Below are positions 24,602-47,100 of a stretch of DNA of 47,309 nt, piece by piece (within the stretch, counting starts at the first letter, position 1; every line of letters begins with the position of its first letter). Below the pieces are notes generated by a model. The model saw only the letters and a program-made list of their open reading frames with translations, made no database searches and had not been told where the DNA came from. Origin of the DNA: a virus (Duplodnaviria; Caudoviricetes); the IMG/VR virus record IMGVR_UViG_3300002092_001330, positions 1 to 47,309 of that record; one strand, given 5' to 3'. Made by a program: the position numbers and the translations under genes.

Positions 24602-27271
24602 ATGCCATTTGAATCAGAAGCCCAAAGAAAAGCTATGTATGCCTCTGCAAGTGGCAAGGGTAATATTGGCATCCCTAAAGAAGTGGCTAAAAAATTCATT
24701 AAACATTCAACTGATGAAATCCCAAAAGAACCTACAGTTTTATCAACTCCAGAATTTATAGAAGATGAAAGTTCAGATTTAACTGAAGCTAGACATCAAT
24801 TAGATTCTATTCAATATGAAATAAAAGCTATTGCTCAAAAAATCCTTGCTTACAAAGGTGATGGGTTAATGCAAAAAGTTCAAGAATTACATTCTAAAGA
24901 TAAAGAAATTGTTGCTAGATTAGGTCAATCAACTGAAGCAGTTCCCAGACATGAAGATGATTCTGAAGCATGGGAAACCAAAGAAGGCAAAAATAAAAAT
25001 GGTGGATTAAATGCTAAAGGTCGTGCTTCTTATAATAAAGAACATGGGGCACATTTAAAAGCACCCCAACCTGAAGGTGGATCAAGAAAAGCATCTTTTT
25101 GTGCCAGAATGAAAGGCATGAAAGAAAAGCTAACATCTTCTGCAACAGCCCATGATCCTGATTCAAGAATCAATAAATCTTTAAGAAAATGGAAATGTGA
25201 TAGTGATTCAATTAAAGAAGATATTGGTAAAATTTGTGATTCAATATTAGATTATGCACAATCTATTCCAGATGAAGATCCCTGTTGGCAAGGTTTTACT
25301 CAATATGGGATGAAAGAAAAAAATGGTAAACAAGTTCCAAATTGTGTACCTGATGATGGCAAAAAACAGATTAATGGCAATGTTGCTATTTATGATCGAC
25401 CAGATGCTTTAGTTCCTGAAAAACCACAAGTAGTTATGCCAATAGAAAAAGATGCTGGAAAATTTGGTAGATCATCAGGCATTTTATTCTTAACTTCTGA
25501 TAATCAAACTTTAATGATTCGCAGGGGTGATGGTGGGGATTACCCTTATACATGGTGTGTACCCGGTGGTCATCAAAATCCTGAAGATAAAGATTTAGAG
25601 GAATGTGCTCGTAGAGAATGTTTTGAAGAAACAGGAATTGATTACAAAGGCAAATTAGAAGTATTACACGATGATGGACAATTCTGTACCTATATTGCTA
25701 GAAATGTTAAAAAAGAAGATGTTACATTAAATTATGAATCTTCTGGATATGATTGGGCTGATATTCATTGTCCACCATTACCATTGCACCCCGGTCTTGA
25801 AATAGCATTAAAAGTTGCTTCTGCTAAAACAGAAATGGATATTGCAGAATTGATTAAATGCGACATCTTGTCAAGTCCACAAATGTATGCGAATATCGGA
25901 TTATTCGCAATTCGCATTACTGGAACAGGTTTAGCTTATAGATCTTCTATTAATGAATATGTATGGAGAGATTCATCTTTATATTTAAATGATGAGTTTT
26001 TAAAAAGATGTAATGGTTTGATGGTCATTATGGATCATCCTGAATCTGCTGTATTAACTCCAAAAGAGTTTAAAGATAGAGTAGTAGGAAGTATTATGTT
26101 GCCTTATATTAAAGGTGATGAGATTTGGGGAATTGCTAAAATTTACGATCAAGACGCAATTGATGAAATTTGCGAAGGTGAAATAAGCACATCCCCTTCA
26201 GTAGTATTTGACAATACTGCTGGAAACACTACACTAACAACTGAGAATGGTGATCCACTCTTAATTGAAGGTGTTCCATTTCTTTTAGATCATATAGCTA
26301 TTGTTACAAAAGCTAGAGGATCTAAGGGAGTATGGGATAAGGGTGGCGAAGCCACAGGAGTTTTATTAACTAACCCAGAGGTATCTGATATGACAGAAAA
26401 TAGAAATGATCCAAAGGCAGATGCCAATGGTGACAAACTTGATGCCATTTTATCGGCTCTCAGCAATCTTGCTGTACGAGTTGATGCGATGGAAAAAGAT
26501 TTACCAGCACCACCATTAGTGACTGCGGCTGATAAAAAAGCCAAACGCAAAGATGATGACGATGATGCAATGTGCGATGATGATGATGAAGAATCTGAAT
26601 CTGAAGCCAAAGAAATGATGGAAAGAAAAGCTGACAAAAAGCGTAAAGATGATGATGACGATTCTAAGCATCGTAAAGATGCGAAAAAACGCAAAGATGC
26701 TGAAGGATCTGATCCTAAAGAACATGGCAAAGCTGGTGAAATGAAGCCTGATGATGAAGGTGAAGTAGAACATCCGGGTCATATCAAGTTCAAAAAAGAT
26801 GATGATGAGGAAGAAGAAACCAAGATGGATGATGATGACGAAATGGCAATGAAAAAAGATGAAGAAGAAGCTAAGATGGCTGATGCACAAGCCAAAGCTG
26901 ATTCAGTTCTTTCAGCCTTTGGTAAATCAGCATCTCGCCCATTACAAGGTGAAGGTTTAATGTCTTATCGTAAAAGATTGTTAAGAGGTCTACAAGCCTA
27001 TTCTGATGCTTATAAAGATGTAAATCTTGTTAAGGAAATCAAGGGTGAAAAGATGCTTTCTATTGCTGAAAAGCAAATCTTTAATGATGCTTTAGTAGCC
27101 GCTAAATCGCCTACTATGTATGCTAATGATTCAGAGTATGAAATCCATGAAAGAGATAGATCAGGTCGTACTATCACTAAATTCAAAGGTGGTTTTGGAT
27201 GGCTTGATGCTTTCAAAGTTCCATCATTGAGAGCCAAGGAGTTCAACCTCAACCCTAACAACAAACGATAA
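24602..27271 (+). CDS. Multidomain head maturation protein: N-terminal modules + NUDIX + DUF2213-like protease + acidic scaffold
   Basis: Nudix box GGHQNPEDKDLEECARRECFEETG; VIMDHP...STSPS...DHIAIV...GVWDKGG; D/E/K-rich C-terminus; sits in the protease/scaffold slot before the capsid genes. Confidence 0.8.
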   Translation: MPFESEAQRKAMYASASGKGNIGIPKEVAKKFIKHSTDEIPKEPTVLSTPEFIEDESSDLTEARHQLDSIQYEIKAIAQKILAYKGDGLMQKVQELHSKDKEIVARLGQSTEAVPRHEDDSEAWETKEGKNKNGGLNAKGRASYNKEHGAHLKAPQPEGGSRKASFCARMKGMKEKLTSSATAHDPDSRINKSLRKWKCDSDSIKEDIGKICDSILDYAQSIPDEDPCWQGFTQYGMKEKNGKQVPNCVPDDGKKQINGNVAIYDRPDALVPEKPQVVMPIEKDAGKFGRSSGILFLTSDNQTLMIRRGDGGDYPYTWCVPGGHQNPEDKDLEECARRECFEETGIDYKGKLEVLHDDGQFCTYIARNVKKEDVTLNYESSGYDWADIHCPPLPLHPGLEIALKVASAKTEMDIAELIKCDILSSPQMYANIGLFAIRITGTGLAYRSSINEYVWRDSSLYLNDEFLKRCNGLMVIMDHPESAVLTPKEFKDRVVGSIMLPYIKGDEIWGIAKIYDQDAIDEICEGEISTSPSVVFDNTAGNTTLTTENGDPLLIEGVPFLLDHIAIVTKARGSKGVWDKGGEATGVLLTNPEVSDMTENRNDPKADANGDKLDAILSALSNLAVRVDAMEKDLPAPPLVTAADKKAKRKDDDDDAMCDDDDEESESEAKEMMERKADKKRKDDDDDSKHRKDAKKRKDAEGSDPKEHGKAGEMKPDDEGEVEHPGHIKFKKDDDEEEETKMDDDDEMAMKKDEEEAKMADAQAKADSVLSAFGKSASRPLQGEGLMSYRKRLLRGLQAYSDAYKDVNLVKEIKGEKMLSIAEKQIFNDALVAAKSPTMYANDSEYEIHERDRSGRTITKFKGGFGWLDAFKVPSLRAKEFNLNPNNKR

Positions 27272-27947: not shown

Positions 27948-28976
27948 ATGTCAGGCTTCGCACCCTCATTTGTAACAGCCAATCCGCACTATATGATGCC
28001 TGAACTGATTATGCAGTACAGTTTAGCTTCAGGTGCTTTTACAACCCTTGCAACAGAAAACCCAATGCCTAGACTTGGTGAAGCTGATTTGTATGTGTAC
28101 GCTAAAAAAGTACAACTTACAACTCAAGTTCAAGCTAACCAATCTCAGTTTAATCAGTTACCTTCTGCATCAGTTATTCCTAGCATGATTAGTACAGCAA
28201 CTTATCGCTTACAAACTCGTGCTCAGTATGATAACTTTGATGAAGCGGCTACTGGTGCTTGGGGTTATGCACTTCCACAAGCCATGAGATTAGCGGCTCG
28301 TCAAGGTATTGCACAACAATTGCGTAATGCTTTGTTATATGGTTACAATCCTAGCAATGGTGAAGGACTGTTAAATACTAATGGTATTACTACCTCTACT
28401 TTAGGTATGGATACTAATGGTAATACAGGCTATTCAACATGGGATTCTGGTCAATTAGCCCAGTATATGCTCAATATGATTGGTACTTTAAAGACTAATA
28501 CTTTGCAAATTGGACAACCTTTACGCTTAGTATTCTTAGCACCTCAACGCTTTATTAGTCAGATCAGTTACTCTGGTGTTGTTTCATTAACTCAGTTCCA
28601 AAGAATTGGTGCTGGTGTTGAAACTGCGGCTGGTTTAGTTGAAACTGTTGCTCAATGGGCTGGTGGTGATGATGTTAGTTTTGCGGCTGATGATACTCTC
28701 ATTGGTCAAGGTGCTGGTGGTACAGATGCAATTTTATTAATTGCTCCTGAACTCAAGATTCCTAAAGCAAACAATACAATCAATACCAACATTTTTGCAA
28801 CATTGACACCTAATCAAACAGCAACTTCATTGATGCTTACTGATGTGTCAGCACCAACAGAAATTCCAACACCGATTCCTGATGGTGGAATTACTACCTT
28901 GTATACAATGAGAAGCACTTCTGGTTGGGGATTACGACCAGAAGCACTTTATTTGTTGTCTGCGGCTTACGCTTAA
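27948..28976 (+). CDS. Major capsid protein
   Basis: 342 aa, synteny, ARQGIAQQLRNALLYG...GEGLLN, strong RBS, followed by a terminator. Confidence 0.85.
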   Translation: MSGFAPSFVTANPHYMMPELIMQYSLASGAFTTLATENPMPRLGEADLYVYAKKVQLTTQVQANQSQFNQLPSASVIPSMISTATYRLQTRAQYDNFDEAATGAWGYALPQAMRLAARQGIAQQLRNALLYGYNPSNGEGLLNTNGITTSTLGMDTNGNTGYSTWDSGQLAQYMLNMIGTLKTNTLQIGQPLRLVFLAPQRFISQISYSGVVSLTQFQRIGAGVETAAGLVETVAQWAGGDDVSFAADDTLIGQGAGGTDAILLIAPELKIPKANNTINTNIFATLTPNQTATSLMLTDVSAPTEIPTPIPDGGITTLYTMRSTSGWGLRPEALYLLSAAYA

Positions 28977-28996: not shown

Positions 28997-29025
28997 ACCC
29001 CACTCAAAAGGTGGGGTGTTTTTTT
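28997..29025 (+). terminator. Rho-independent terminator after MCP
   Basis: ACCCCAC-N7-GTGGGGT followed by G and T7. Confidence 0.85.
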
Positions 29026-29028
29026 AGA

Positions 29029-29120
29029 TTAAGATACTTGAGTGATGCCAAGTTTGTATTAATGGGTGGCAGGAAATCTGTAAAAAGATTTCGCATCATC
29101 TGTCACCCACCCTTATGGGA
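29029..29120 (+). ncRNA. Candidate structured RNA with loop-bulge kissing pseudoknot
   Basis: Hairpin loop AGTGATGC (29041-48) is complementary to bulge GCATCAT (29093-99) within a two-helix stem. Confidence 0.6.
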
Positions 29121-29127
29121 AAATAAA

Positions 29128-29631
29128 ATGAAACTTTATATCGCAAATTGCAGTAAACAAGATCATCAATTCACTTACATGATTATGGAAAACCCTAGAC
29201 CATTTATGGAAAGAATTAGGGCTGGTGCTCAAATTGTTATAGATAGACCACCTAATGAACTCGATCAAATTATTAATCAACATTCTCGTTATGGCTTAAT
29301 GGAAGCAACTAAAGTAAAAAAAGGCTTTGGTGGTATTGCTTACAGAATGGATAAACCCATTAGTGTTGAAGCTATTGAAAGTGGAATTGAACAAAGAGAT
29401 CAAGAAATGATTGATCGTGCTTTAGAAGCAAGAAAAATTACAGCAGTAGCATCAGATCAAATTTTATTGGATAAAGCTCAAGAAATGGGAATTAAACAAA
29501 AATCTGGTTTGGAAATAGAAGTTGTTGAAGAAAAGAAAAATCCTTCAGACAATGCTCCAAAATTTAATCAAACAATTGAAGTTGTACGAGAAGGTTTAAC
29601 TCCAAGAAGGGGTAGACCAAGAAAAACATGA
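29128..29631 (+). CDS. Hypothetical head-cluster protein
   Basis: Start moved to ATG 29128 (MKLYIANCSKQ); ends in an AT-hook-like RRGRPRK. Confidence 0.75.
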   Translation: MKLYIANCSKQDHQFTYMIMENPRPFMERIRAGAQIVIDRPPNELDQIINQHSRYGLMEATKVKKGFGGIAYRMDKPISVEAIESGIEQRDQEMIDRALEARKITAVASDQILLDKAQEMGIKQKSGLEIEVVEEKKNPSDNAPKFNQTIEVVREGLTPRRGRPRKT

Positions 29632-29662
29632 TTTTTAATTAATCTTTAGGTACAATTTAAAT

Positions 29663-30121
29663 ATGACTAGCCCCATTATATCTCCACCAACTTTAGAAGG
29701 CTTTATAGCTTGGTCACAGGCTGTAATGGGCTTAAATTCAATGGTTATTAATCCAACAGATGTTGGTTATACCTATGCTTTTGCTGTTGCTAAAGACATC
29801 GTACCTCAAGATTTTTTAACATTATCACCAGATATTTATACGCTGACTGTTTATAACTATGGTGGTAGTTTGCTTTTACAATGGCAACAAGATATTCGTG
29901 GTCAAACATTTTTTGCTGATGCTAGACAGGCTTATGGCATGAATAGCTTTGTTGCTGGTGTAATTAGTAGTGCATCAGATGTTAGCACTAGCGAAACTTT
30001 AGCAATAGGTCAAGGATTACAAAATCTTGATTTAATTAGTTTAGAAGCAGTTAAAAACCCTTATGGTAGACAAGCAATTGCTTATATGCAATCTATTGGA
30101 ACTCTTTGGGGTTTAACATGA
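29663..30121 (+). CDS. Putative head-tail adaptor
   Basis: Synteny; GVISSASD, NPYGRQAI. Confidence 0.6.
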   Translation: MTSPIISPPTLEGFIAWSQAVMGLNSMVINPTDVGYTYAFAVAKDIVPQDFLTLSPDIYTLTVYNYGGSLLLQWQQDIRGQTFFADARQAYGMNSFVAGVISSASDVSTSETLAIGQGLQNLDLISLEAVKNPYGRQAIAYMQSIGTLWGLT

Positions 30122-44091: not shown

Positions 44092-44113
44092 TAGTTTTTA
44101 ATTAGGGTTTACC

Positions 44114-47100
44114 ATGACTATTCTGTTATTTGCCAATCAAGCACAGACAATATTATCTGAACCAGTAGCTTCTACTGATTTAACTATTACTGTTGCTTCT
44201 GGTACTGGAGTTTATTTTCCACAGCCTACAGAAGGTCAAGGATTCCTATTAACTATTACAGATGCTTACAATCAATTAATTAATGAAATTGTTTTAGTCA
44301 CTAATATAGATGGTGATGTATTTACAATTTTAAGAGGTCAAGAAAATACAATTCCTAAAACATGGCAAATAGGTGATTTTTGTACCAATGTTTTAACTGC
44401 TGGAACTTTAAACAGTTTTCCACAATCAGGTTATTCTGCTTATTCAGGATATTCAGGATTTACAGCACCAACTTATGCAAGCACTCATTTACCTTTAACA
44501 GAAAATATAACATTTGAAAATGTTGAACTGTTATTTTCTAATCAAGCACAAACTACTTTAGCTTTACCTATTACATCAACAGCTACAACAGTTACAGTTG
44601 CTTCTGGAACAGGTGTATATTTTCCAACACCATCAACAAGTCAAGCCTTTAAATTTACTTTAACTGATCCATACAATGAATTAATTACAGAAATTCTTTT
44701 AGTTACACATAAAGAAGGTGATGTTTTTACAGTTGTAAGGGGAGATGAAAATACTATAGCTAGGGCTTGGGAACTTGGAACTTATGCCGCCAATCTTTTA
44801 ACTGCTGGATCATTAGCTAATTTTACTCAAATACCAGTTACATCAGGTTATTCAGGATATTCTGGAACATCAGGTTTTAGTGGTTGTTCTGGTATAAATG
44901 GTTCTTCAGGATTTTCGGGATGTTCTGGTTATTCTGGTTGTTCAGGCTATTCTGGATGTTCTGGATTTAGTGGATATTCTGGATTTAGCGGAAACAATGG
45001 AACATCTTTAAATATTTTAGGAACAGTTCCTACTCCTGCCGATTTACCACCAACAGGCAATCAACCTAATGATGCTTATATTGTTACTTCAGATGGTGAT
45101 TTATGGGTATGGAATGGTACAGAATGGTTTAATGCTGGAGCAATAGTTGGTGCTAGTGGATATTCAGGATATTCTGGGTGCTCTGGGTTTAGTGGTTGTT
45201 CTGGCTATTCAGGTTATTCGGGCTGTAGTGGTTTTTCAGGATACTCGGGCTGTAGTGGATTTTCAGGCTGTTCAGGTTTTAGTGGCTGTTCTGGATTCTC
45301 TGGTTGTTCTGGTTTTTCAGGTTATAGCGGATGTTCTGGTTTTTCGGGATGTTCAGGTTATTCAGGCTTTTCAGGTTGTAGTGGATTTAGTGGCTATTCA
45401 GGTTTTAGTGGATGTTCAGGAATAAGTGGATATTCAGGTTGTTCAGGAATAAGTGGATTTTCGGGATGTTCTGGAATAAGTGGATTTTCAGGTTGTTCTG
45501 GTACAAGTGGTTTTAGTGGTTGTTCTGGGTTTAGCGGTTGCTCTGGTTTTTCAGGTTGTTCAGGCTTTTCTGGTTGTTCAGGGTTTTCAGGATGTAGTGG
45601 ATATTCAGGTTGTTCAGGATACTCAGGAACTTCAGGTATAAGTGGTTATAGCGGATGTAGTGGATTTTCTGGCTGTTCTGGCTATAGTGGAACAAGTGGT
45701 TTTTCAGGTTGTTCGGGTTTTTCAGGATTTTCGGGATGTTCTGGCTATAGTGGATTTTCAGGTTGTTCTGGATATTCAGGTACTTCTGGAATAAGTGGAT
45801 ATTCTGGTTGTAGTGGCTATTCGGGTTATAGCGGTTATTCTGGCTGTAGTGGTTATTCTGGTTGTTCAGGCTATTCTGGATGTAGTGGATATTCAGGAAC
45901 AAGTGGAATAAGTGGCACTTCAGGAATAAGTGGTTATTCTGGTTGCTCTGGTTATAGTGGAACAAGTGGGATAAGTGGCATTTCAGGAATAAGCGGTTAT
46001 TCAGGATCAGGAATATCTGGATATTCAGGTTTTTCAGGATTTAGTGGTCAAAATGGAGATGGTCGATCTGGAGTTTCTGGTTATTCTGGTTGTTCTGGTT
46101 TTAGTGGTGAAAATGGAACATCAGGATATTCGGGAACAAGTGGATATAGTGGTTGTTCAGGAACATCTGGCTATTCAGGGGTTAGTGGCATTTCTGGATA
46201 CTCTGGAAGTGGCATTTCTGGCTATAGTGGATCTGGAATAAGTGGATACTCAGGAAATTCAGGTTATTCAGGCACTTCAGGATTTAGTGGTACAAGTGGA
46301 ACATCAGGATATTCTGGAACATCAGGATATTCTGGAACATCAGGATTTTCTGGATCAGGTATTTCTGGTTACTCAGGCACAAGTGGATTTAGTGGTGATA
46401 GTGGCATCTCTGGTTTCTCTGGAATAAGTGGCTATAGTGGCATATCTGGTTTTAGTGGAGTATCTGGATTTTCAGGCGAACAAGGATCATCAACCAGTTT
46501 ATTTTTATATCAAGCACAAACAACTGCAACAAGTGGTCAGCCTACAAATGGTCATTTGCTTTGGAATAATGCAACTCAAATTAGTGCAACTCAAATTAAT
46601 ATTAGTCATTTAACAGATGATAATACTGATATTGATGTATTTTTAGCATTATTAAAACCTACAGAAACTTTTATTTTGCAAGACAGAAATGTAAGTGCAA
46701 ATTATCAAACTTGGTTAATAACAGGCAATACAACAAATATAAATCCAAATACTACAAATAGTTATTGGACAGTACCAGTAAGCCTTGTATCGTCAGGTGG
46801 CACAGGAACAAGTAACTTTGCTAATAATCATCAATTATTTTTTGCAGTAACACAAGGGATAAGTGGTACATCTGGTTATAGTGGTTATTCTGGATTTTCA
46901 GGAATAGGAACAAGTGGTTTTAGTGGTTATTCTGGTATATCTGGATTTTCAGGCATTTCTGGATTTTCAGGTGTATCTGGATATTCTGGTATTTCTGGTT
47001 ATAGTGGTGCTGGAATAAGTGGCTATTCAGGAAGTGGAATATCTGGTTATAGCGGATATAGTGGATTTTCAGGAACTTCTGGTTTTAGTGGCACTAGTGG

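What the first reader, a model, noticed from the sequence alone, without database searches (positions are those of the whole stretch)
29029..29120. Kissing-loop structured RNA between the capsid terminator and the next gene
Seen: hairpin ACTTG-[AGTGATGC]-CAAGT (29036-53); a 10-bp stem TGGGTGGCAG/CTGTCACCCA (29063-72/29100-09) stacked on GAAATCT/AGATTTC (29073-79/29086-92); and a 7-nt one-sided bulge GCATCAT (29093-99) fully complementary to the first loop (GUGAUGC, 6 Watson-Crick pairs plus 1 GU). A small CCC-TTAT-GGG hairpin then covers the RBS of the 29128 gene. Nearly the whole interval is accounted for by pairing. Inference: a cis-regulatory pseudoknot setting capsid-to-neck stoichiometry, a nuclease-blocking element, or an RNA that multimerises hand-in-hand like phi29 pRNA. 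I do not recognise it as a known family.
Basis: partly seen in the sequence, partly recalled or inferred. Interest (0 to 1): 0.8.

Follow-up and report, generated by a model that had tools for sequence, protein, structure and literature searches.

The report
Kissing-loop leader RNA after phage capsid
A roughly 85-base stretch whose self-locking RNA fold is kept by matching mutations across a group of uncultured phages sits just ahead of the small gene after the capsid gene, matches no Rfam family, and likely limits how much of that one protein is made.

Summary
Window 29036-29119 folds as hairpin P1, a 9-nt linker and a P2/P3 rod whose 7-nt bulge pairs with the P1 loop (a branched kissing loop). 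A 3-bp hairpin then covers the Shine-Dalgarno of gene X (29128).

The fold parses in 82 of 96 distinct gene-X upstream regions. On 70 aligned copies, 21 of 26 pairs show two-sided changes. The kiss itself changes compensatorily in at least three lineages. There is no Rfam hit, and one strong copy per matching record.

It belongs to gene X, not to the capsid gene or the whole neck operon. It follows X when an ORF is inserted after the capsid gene. A -10-like box precedes it in 63 of 73 variants. X is followed by a terminator or a new promoter-like box in 37 of 59 relatives.

Best reading: a translational-operator leader for X (0.5). Ligand and function are untested. pRNA, ribozyme and antiterminator readings are weak. 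It may sit among Fremin 2023's unread candidates.

The parts
27948..28976 (+). Major capsid protein gene (context)
   Evidence: phrog_6671 and phrog_264 'major head protein'
28997..29025 (+). Intrinsic terminator of the capsid transcript; separate from the motif and absent in some relatives that keep it (L003, L011, L056, L309, L397)
29025..29030 (+). Predicted -10 box TAGATT (4/6, no TG extension here; most relatives have TGnTAnnnT). Inferred +1 near 29036
   Evidence: 63 of 73 cores have a box at this distance, 46 with TG; shuffles 27+-4 and 2.6. The window's own site is not listed by the consensus scan
29036..29053 (+). P1 hairpin (4-bp core, 5 bp here) with 8-nt loop N-GUGAUGC
   Evidence: all 4 core pairs show two-sided changes, 100% paired
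29042..29048 (+). Kissing strand 1 (loop)
   Evidence: variants GUGAAGC, GUCAAGC, GUCAUGC and GUGAAGA, matched by bulge changes
29054..29062 (+). Linker J1/2: variable sequence, tightly held length
   Evidence: loop-to-junction span 24-27 nt, sd 0.85, against 15-37 nt for the P3 arm
29063..29109 (+). P2 (10 bp; 29063-72/29100-09) and P3 (29073-79/29086-92, variable arm)
   Evidence: 10 of 10 and 5 of 5 pairs with two-sided changes
29093..29099 (+). Kissing strand 2: 7-nt one-sided bulge GCAUCAU
29110..29119 (+). P4: CCC anti-SD pairing with the GGG of the Shine-Dalgarno, directly after P2
   Evidence: 3-4 bp possible in 66 of 73; SD G predicted mostly paired in 68 of 72; CCC 90-100% conserved; no covariation
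29128..29631 (+). Gene X, 167 aa, phrog_6737, function unknown; small N-terminal alpha/beta domain, long helix, basic RGRPRK tail
   Evidence: no Pfam or PDB match
29651..29656 (+). Predicted -10 box TACAAT 6 nt before the ATG of the next gene (29663): a separate, leaderless-type start that would uncouple the neck genes from gene X
   Evidence: 17 of 59 distinct X-Y spacers show such a box at 5/6 or better (rows)

Best explanation
This is a conserved kissing-loop RNA fold directly ahead of gene X, predicted to form the whole 5' leader of X's own transcript, and it likely acts as a translational operator that holds X synthesis down. Shown: the fold, its conservation and its linkage to X. Inferred: transcription starts 1-2 nt before P1 from a host sigma-70-type promoter; P1 and P2/P3 fold and the loop docks on the bulge, stacking P1, the 7-bp kiss and P2 into a rod of about 22 bp spanned by a nearly taut linker, which would lock P2. 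P2 ends 16-23 nt before the AUG, about the upstream edge of the 30S footprint (footprint size recalled), so the ribosome would have no unstructured landing strip and would have to melt the stacked CCC/GGG hairpin. A protein binding the locked rod would shut initiation further. The best candidate is X itself (basic tail, probable nucleic-acid-binding assembly factor), giving feedback like T4 gp32 or S15, but no call shows this binding.
For: Fold and kiss covary, with two-sided kiss changes in at least three lineages on an MCP+X tree. All 48 of 120 pattern hits with the full structure lie in gene-X loci, and none of the other 72 do. The motif stays next to X when a 51-104 aa ORF is inserted after the capsid gene (12 of 64 spacers) and when the terminator is missing. 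A -10-like box sits at a fixed distance in 63 of 73. A terminator (21) or leaderless-type box (17) follows X in 37 of 59. The P2-to-AUG distance is fixed at 16-23 nt, sd 1.2. SD G residues are predicted paired in 68 of 72. No conserved uORF: 4 of 73 upstream ATGs are in frame and open. Precedent: T4 gp32 represses through a leader pseudoknot (PMC3014915 passages).
Against: The SD hairpin does not covary (mean 2.93 bp against 3.02 in permutations) and is only 2 bp in 7 of 73. Predicted SD occlusion is not unique: another late gene (27282) scores the same 0.01. I found no alternative 'on' conformation. X residues conserved in motif carriers are mostly kept in the four close motif-less lineages, so protein and RNA show no co-evolution. 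X has no known RNA-binding fold. The promoter is a consensus inference, weak in this window, absent in 10 of 73, and the counts are not phylogenetically independent. In 22 of 59 relatives X shows no sign of being uncoupled from the next gene.
Confidence: 0.5

Rival explanations
1. A static leader with no ligand: the locked fold shields the 5' end from RppH/RNase E-type decay and sets a fixed low translation rate for X.
For: The fold starts at the inferred +1. No switch conformation was found. Unpaired positions are poorly conserved.
Against: A plain 5' hairpin would suffice (established knowledge). The kiss and its flanking G-C pairs are 95-100% conserved in sequence while neighbouring stems vary freely, which points to a specific surface being read.
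Confidence: 0.17
2. A small-molecule or ion riboswitch whose pocket is the kissing junction and whose expression platform is the SD hairpin.
For: 5' leader with an anti-SD. Conserved junction with a near-invariant G-U (64 of 68). Three riboswitches bind ligand at branched kissing loops (PMC8457670 passage).
Against: No conserved unpaired nucleotide at the junction. Confined to one phage gene with no metabolic context. Not found in 100 other genomes of the family of the one MAG that holds it. No Rfam match.
Confidence: 0.08
4. A put-like nascent-RNA antiterminator that modifies RNA polymerase for the neck and tail operon.
For: About 75 nt, two stem-loops, right after a promoter-like box, as for HK022 putL (PMC9378689 passages).
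Against: One copy per genome. The terminator scan shows only one weak plus-strand terminator-like site beyond the leader (4 sites in all against 9.4 in shuffles). Many relatives restart transcription after X. The conserved tie is to the AUG.
Confidence: 0.06
5. A 3'-to-5' exonuclease roadblock that protects capsid read-through mRNA or leaves a stable small RNA.
For: In the taut-linker model the 3' strand passes through the ring closed by the kiss (inference).
Against: A terminator hairpin already lies upstream in most relatives. The motif follows X's start, not the capsid stop.
Confidence: 0.05
6. A new self-cleaving ribozyme related in layout to pistol.
For: Three stems plus a pseudoknot from the P1 loop to the P2/P3 junction, as in pistol.
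Against: The kiss uses the 3' junction, pistol the 5' one. The opposite junction has 0 nt. No conserved unpaired core. No Rfam ribozyme hit.
Confidence: 0.03

Closest known systems
T4/T2/RB69 gene 32 leader pseudoknot (autogenous translational operator)
   Same: Phage mRNA leader, pseudoknot upstream of the RBS, patchy among relatives (RB49 lacks it; PMC3014915 passages).
   Different: Gene 32 has a two-helix pseudoknot 67 nt upstream, followed by an unstructured A+U tract. Here a four-helix loop-bulge kiss abuts an SD hairpin, before a virion-module gene of unknown function. Protein binding is not shown.
E. coli rpsO (S15) operator pseudoknot
   Same: Pseudoknot at the translation initiation region, bound by the gene product to repress (PMC3985624, start of abstract in listing).
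   Different: rpsO switches between pseudoknot and double hairpin; no alternative fold was found here. Different topology and gene.
Branched kissing loop (bKL) motif: phi29 pRNA, THF riboswitch, pistol, RNase P, T-box
   Same: Hairpin loop pairing with a bulge, kiss helix predicted to stack between the loop stem and one bulge arm (PMC8457670 passages).
   Different: A 7-bp kiss using the whole bulge and all but one loop base, with the hairpin lying 5' of the bulged rod. No Rfam family matched.
Pistol ribozyme
   Same: P1 loop pairs with a P2/P3 junction; three stems.
   Different: Mirror-image junction, no 2-nt cleavage junction, no conserved catalytic core.
HK022 putL RNA
   Same: About 70 nt, two stem-loops, promoter-proximal.
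   Different: No loop-bulge kiss reported in the passages read (0 hits for 'pseudoknot'); put occurs twice per genome and acts on long operons.
Rfam phage motifs near structural genes (Mu-gpT-DE, GP20-a/b) and Fremin 2023 candidate RNAs
   Same: Structured RNAs beside head genes, of unknown or presumed cis function (Mu-gpT-DE description recalled).
   Different: No Rfam match at gathering or E<10. Fremin's alignments and BED file could not be read, so overlap with an unnamed candidate is open.

Membership tests
Any Rfam 15 family (incl. Mu-gpT-DE, GP20, pistol, THF, ZTP) | Score at or above gathering threshold | tested here: not met
   0 hits on the window and on 15 homolog loci; at E<=10 no hit covers the motif, and the best are terminator-driven
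Branched kissing loop motif | Watson-Crick pairing of a hairpin loop with a helix bulge | tested here: met
   7-bp kiss, 99.6% of cells paired, two-sided changes at 2 pairs, in at least 3 lineages
Branched kissing loop motif | Coaxial stack of loop stem, kiss and one bulge arm | not testable with these tools
   Only an idealised length estimate
Gene 32-type translational operator | Pseudoknot in the 5' leader at fixed distance from the start codon | tested here: met
Gene 32-type translational operator | Unstructured A+U tract between pseudoknot and RBS | tested here: not met
   P2 runs straight into the CCC/GGG hairpin
Gene 32-type translational operator | Gene product binds the RNA and represses | not testable with these tools
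   Indirect look at co-evolution gave no signal
Pistol ribozyme | Pseudoknot to the junction on the left (5') shoulders of P2/P3 | tested here: not met
   Kiss is on the 3' side (definition)
Pistol ribozyme | 2-nt junction on the right shoulders and 10 highly conserved nucleotides | tested here: not met
   Right junction is the 7-nt kiss strand; conserved positions in the core are all paired
phi29 pRNA | Discrete non-coding transcript (recalled) | tested here: not met
   No terminator between motif and gene X; fixed spacing to the AUG
phi29 pRNA | Intermolecular loop-bulge pairing | not testable with these tools
   Covariation is blind to this; the linker allows the intramolecular form
HK022 put | About 70 nt with two stem-loops just after a promoter | tested here: met
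   (promoter inferred)
HK022 put | Downstream terminators in the same long operon that need read-through | tested here: inconclusive
   One weak site in the window; where a terminator follows X, a new -10-like box usually follows it; Rho sites not testable
Metabolite riboswitch | Conserved unpaired pocket nucleotides and a metabolic gene context | tested here: not met
   single phage gene of unknown function
gpFI/YqbF-like packaging chaperone (gene X) | Fold or sequence homology | tested here: inconclusive
   Weak only: YqbF 2hjq Z 3.1, rmsd 2.2, 47 aligned, rank 27; BFVD 'HeH/LEM domain' E 0.0065

The most novel reading that the evidence does not exclude
That would be a packaging RNA in a terminase-type myovirus, outside the phi29 group.
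Probability: 0.07. Interest if true: 0.9.

Novelty: new variant of a known kind. Interest (0 to 1): 0.55.

Why it matters
Pseudoknot-based translational control is documented for very few phage genes; a 2010 review calls gene 32 possibly the only viral example. This family is compact, has 73 natural variants including ready-made compensatory kiss pairs, and can be tested with a simple reporter. It is also a clean natural 7-bp branched kissing loop, a motif with few solved examples. It singles out an uncharacterised, widespread post-capsid gene (701 representatives at 50% clustering) as one whose dose the phage controls separately. Unchecked notes from this scan report different knotted leaders at the same position in other clades, which would make this a recurring need. 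Against a higher score: function is untested, the range is one clade, and it may already be an unnamed candidate in Fremin 2023.

Tried and rejected
- Rfam: no family.
- Second pseudoknot between the U-rich linker and the A-rich P3 loop: rejected (3.79 against 3.92 bp in permutations).
- uORF or N-terminal extension through the motif (the window has an open frame 29011-29127): not conserved, 4 of 73 in frame and open.
- Bulge pairing with tandem ATGATG starts: rejected, because variants with changed bulges keep ATGATG (L018, L078).
- P2 slip register freeing the SD: fits the window, not GA-containing variants (inspection).
- DNA-level inverted repeat or minus-strand RNA: disfavoured by 72 G-U among 755 P2 pairs and by MFE -30.2 against -24.0.
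- Extra copies: window next best E 0.13; two extra hits at E about 0.04 among 35 records.
- Host-genome copies: only the source MAG among 101 genomes searched. The host is unresolved: two MAG contigs with conflicting labels.
- Protein-RNA co-evolution: none seen.
- Function of X: no Pfam, PDB-sequence, Foldseek-PDB, VIA (none at Z>=5) or Atlas family.
- Expression: no RNA holder was listed, which is no evidence either way.
- Alignment A1 held a wrong range for L003 and was not used.
- Literature searches listed no paper describing this motif; most subscription papers are not covered. Fremin 2023: three supplement files searched for four short motif strings without a hit; two zip files and one table were not searched, and three files are unreadable.
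- Popovic 2012 (gpFI) is not held, so the gpFI/YqbF positional argument is largely recalled.

Full report
Observation. Hairpin P1 (29036-53) has the loop A-GUGAUGC. A 9-nt linker leads to P2 (29063-72/29100-09), which runs into P3 (29073-79/29086-92). The one-sided bulge GCAUCAU (29093-99) can pair with seven of the eight loop bases. CCC-UUAU-GGG (29110-19) follows, 8 nt before the ATG at 29128. RNAfold finds the nested helices unaided. The window is a myovirus-like phage genome with TerL, portal, capsid and sheath genes. No Rfam family reaches threshold in the window or in 15 homologous loci, and no hit at E<=10 covers the motif.

Conservation. I collected relatives through the capsid protein and gene X. 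321 loci carried X. After dropping two with too little upstream DNA and those whose match began past residue 6, there were 96 distinct 120-nt upstream regions. 82 parsed as the full fold (73 distinct cores) and 14 did not. Two of the 14 (L312, L391) are degenerate copies that the covariance model still finds. Five are motif-less relatives at 52-63% X identity, and seven are distant (32-39%), including five cultured phages of enterobacteria and Actinobacillus, which show only a terminator and RBS or an intervening gene. On 70 model-aligned copies 99.6% of 1,778 cells pair and 21 of 26 pairs change on both sides, with none of 500 shuffles as high. That alignment is fitted to the nested helices, but the kiss was not in the model. 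A plain MAFFT subset of 29, chosen for a 10-bp P2, gives 17 of 26.

The kiss. Of 73 cores, 64 have GUGAUGC/GCAUCAU. The rest are GUGAAGC/GCUUCAU (1), GUCAAGC/GCUUGAU (2), GUCAUGC/GCAUGAU (1), a G-U to G-C change (3), a 6-bp version GUGAAGA/ACUUCAC (1) and one uncompensated mismatch (L287). On a quick MCP+X tree (83 rows, 9 dropped for short matches) the two-sided changes fall in at least three separate lineages. The kiss is therefore under selection as pairing. It is also far more conserved in sequence than the stems around it: bulge positions are 95-100% conserved, with near-fixed G-C pairs on both sides and a G-U in 64 of 68. The variable loop base and the linker are not conserved in sequence; the only strongly conserved positions outside the core are the CCC after P2.

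It belongs to gene X. A pattern scan of IMG/VR (stopped at 41 of 64 parts) gave 120 hits. 48 had the full structure, all in gene-X loci; the other 72 had neither. There is one strong copy per record in 32 of 35 records searched and one in the window. In 12 of 64 distinct capsid-to-X spacers a 51-104 aa ORF is inserted, and the motif stays next to X. Several relatives keep the motif without the terminator. A -10-like hexamer ends 10-15 nt before the loop G in 63 of 73 cores, 46 with a TG extension, against 27+-4 and 2.6 in local shuffles (relatives are not independent). That would put +1 on the A one or two bases before P1. The window's own box (TAGATT, 29025-30) is weak and was not listed by the consensus scan. 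Downstream, 21 of 59 distinct X-to-next-gene spacers hold an intrinsic terminator, and 17 hold a 5/6 or better -10 box 5-6 nt before the next ATG (counted from the rows; union 37). The window is of the second type (TACAAT 29651-56). In the other 22 relatives X appears co-transcribed with the next gene.

Geometry. The span from loop end to the P2/P3 junction is 24-27 nt (sd 0.85), while the P3 arm ranges from 15 to 37 nt. If P1, kiss and P2 stack as in described branched kissing loops (PMC8457670 passages), the rod is about 22 bp, two A-form turns. The linker must then cover about 60 A at a median 5.2-5.6 A per step, feasible in 72-73 of 73 (idealised helix, inference). A linker held just long enough favours an intramolecular, locked fold in which the 3' strand passes through the ring closed by the kiss. 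It does not exclude dimers. P2 ends 16-23 nt before the AUG. The following CCC is 90-100% conserved and can pair 3-4 bp with the SD in 66 of 73; SD G residues are predicted mostly paired in 68 of 72. This hairpin does not covary, and one of 12 other late genes in the window has an equally occluded predicted SD, so this link is the weakest part of the mechanism.

Gene X. It is a 167-aa member of phrog_6737, widespread (701 representatives), with a basic C-terminal RGRPRK-like tail. The model (pLDDT 76) has no clear structural match. There are weak leads to YqbF (Z 3.1) and to a viral 'HeH/LEM domain' protein. Its position after the capsid gene recalls gpFI-type packaging chaperones (one passage for TP901-1, PMC4493119; otherwise recalled). 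Residues conserved in motif carriers are mostly kept in motif-less close relatives, so nothing here shows that X binds the RNA.

Mechanism. The most likely reading (0.5) is a translational operator: a locked rod at the ribosome's upstream edge plus a stacked SD hairpin keep initiation low, and a bound protein, most plausibly X, would close it. It works like the T4 gene 32 or rpsO operators if the best reading is right, but it is not a member of either. It fails the pistol definition (PMC4604425 passages) as a mirror-image junction without a conserved unpaired core.

Prior description. Searches listed no paper on this motif. Fremin et al. 2023 screened the same IMG/VR intergenic space (abstract, methods and supplement list read); their alignments and BED file could not be read, so an unnamed listing is possible. 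Other papers seen: PMC3014915, PMC9378689 and PMC11445458 as passages (the last was irrelevant); PMC3985624 as a listing only; Wyckoff and Casjens 1985 on P22 scaffold autoregulation as a reference title only.

Verdict. This is a real, strongly covarying, uncatalogued kissing-loop leader specific to one gene of one phage clade, with function inferred only. Interest 0.55; a new variant of a known kind.

Noticed in passing
window 29651-29665: A -10-like box TACAAT 6 nt before the ATG of the gene at 29663, with no SD: a probable leaderless transcript for the first neck-region gene, seen in 17 of 59 relatives.
   Followed up: partly
L001 2527-2760, L031 2527-2850, L065 2527-2920: A small inserted ORF family (51-104 aa; N-terminal helix like LE..FM.EVR.FM plus an acidic Ala/Thr/Pro-rich tail) between capsid terminator and motif in 12 of 64 spacers.
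   Followed up: no
L073 2620-2745: A motif-less relative has a different structured leader (two hairpins after a TAAAAT box) ahead of gene X; the RNA model does not match it.
   Followed up: partly
L312 1400-1489, L391 1403-1492: Degenerate copies with a 6-bp kiss and a frayed P2/P3 junction, next to an intact sister (L392): possibly the motif decaying.
   Followed up: partly
L404 about 1395-1475: A tRNA-like sequence with a CAT triplet in the anticodon position sits between the capsid gene and gene X in a distant relative (seen by eye; not run through ARAGORN).
   Followed up: no
L076, L273, L307, after gene X: A terminator followed by about 300 nt of extra sequence, apparently holding a reverse-strand ORF (read by eye), between X and the next gene.
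   Followed up: no
window 28918-28944: A 10-bp hairpin inside the 3' end of the capsid gene, flagged as terminator-like.
   Followed up: no
window 24602-27271: An 889-aa head-region protein fusing several small domains, including a Nudix hydrolase-like part.
   Followed up: no
window 44100-46000: The region beyond the tail genes gives only low-complexity, repeat-like alternative-frame ORFs in the listing, suggesting a repeat-rich fibre gene that crosses the contig end.
   Followed up: no
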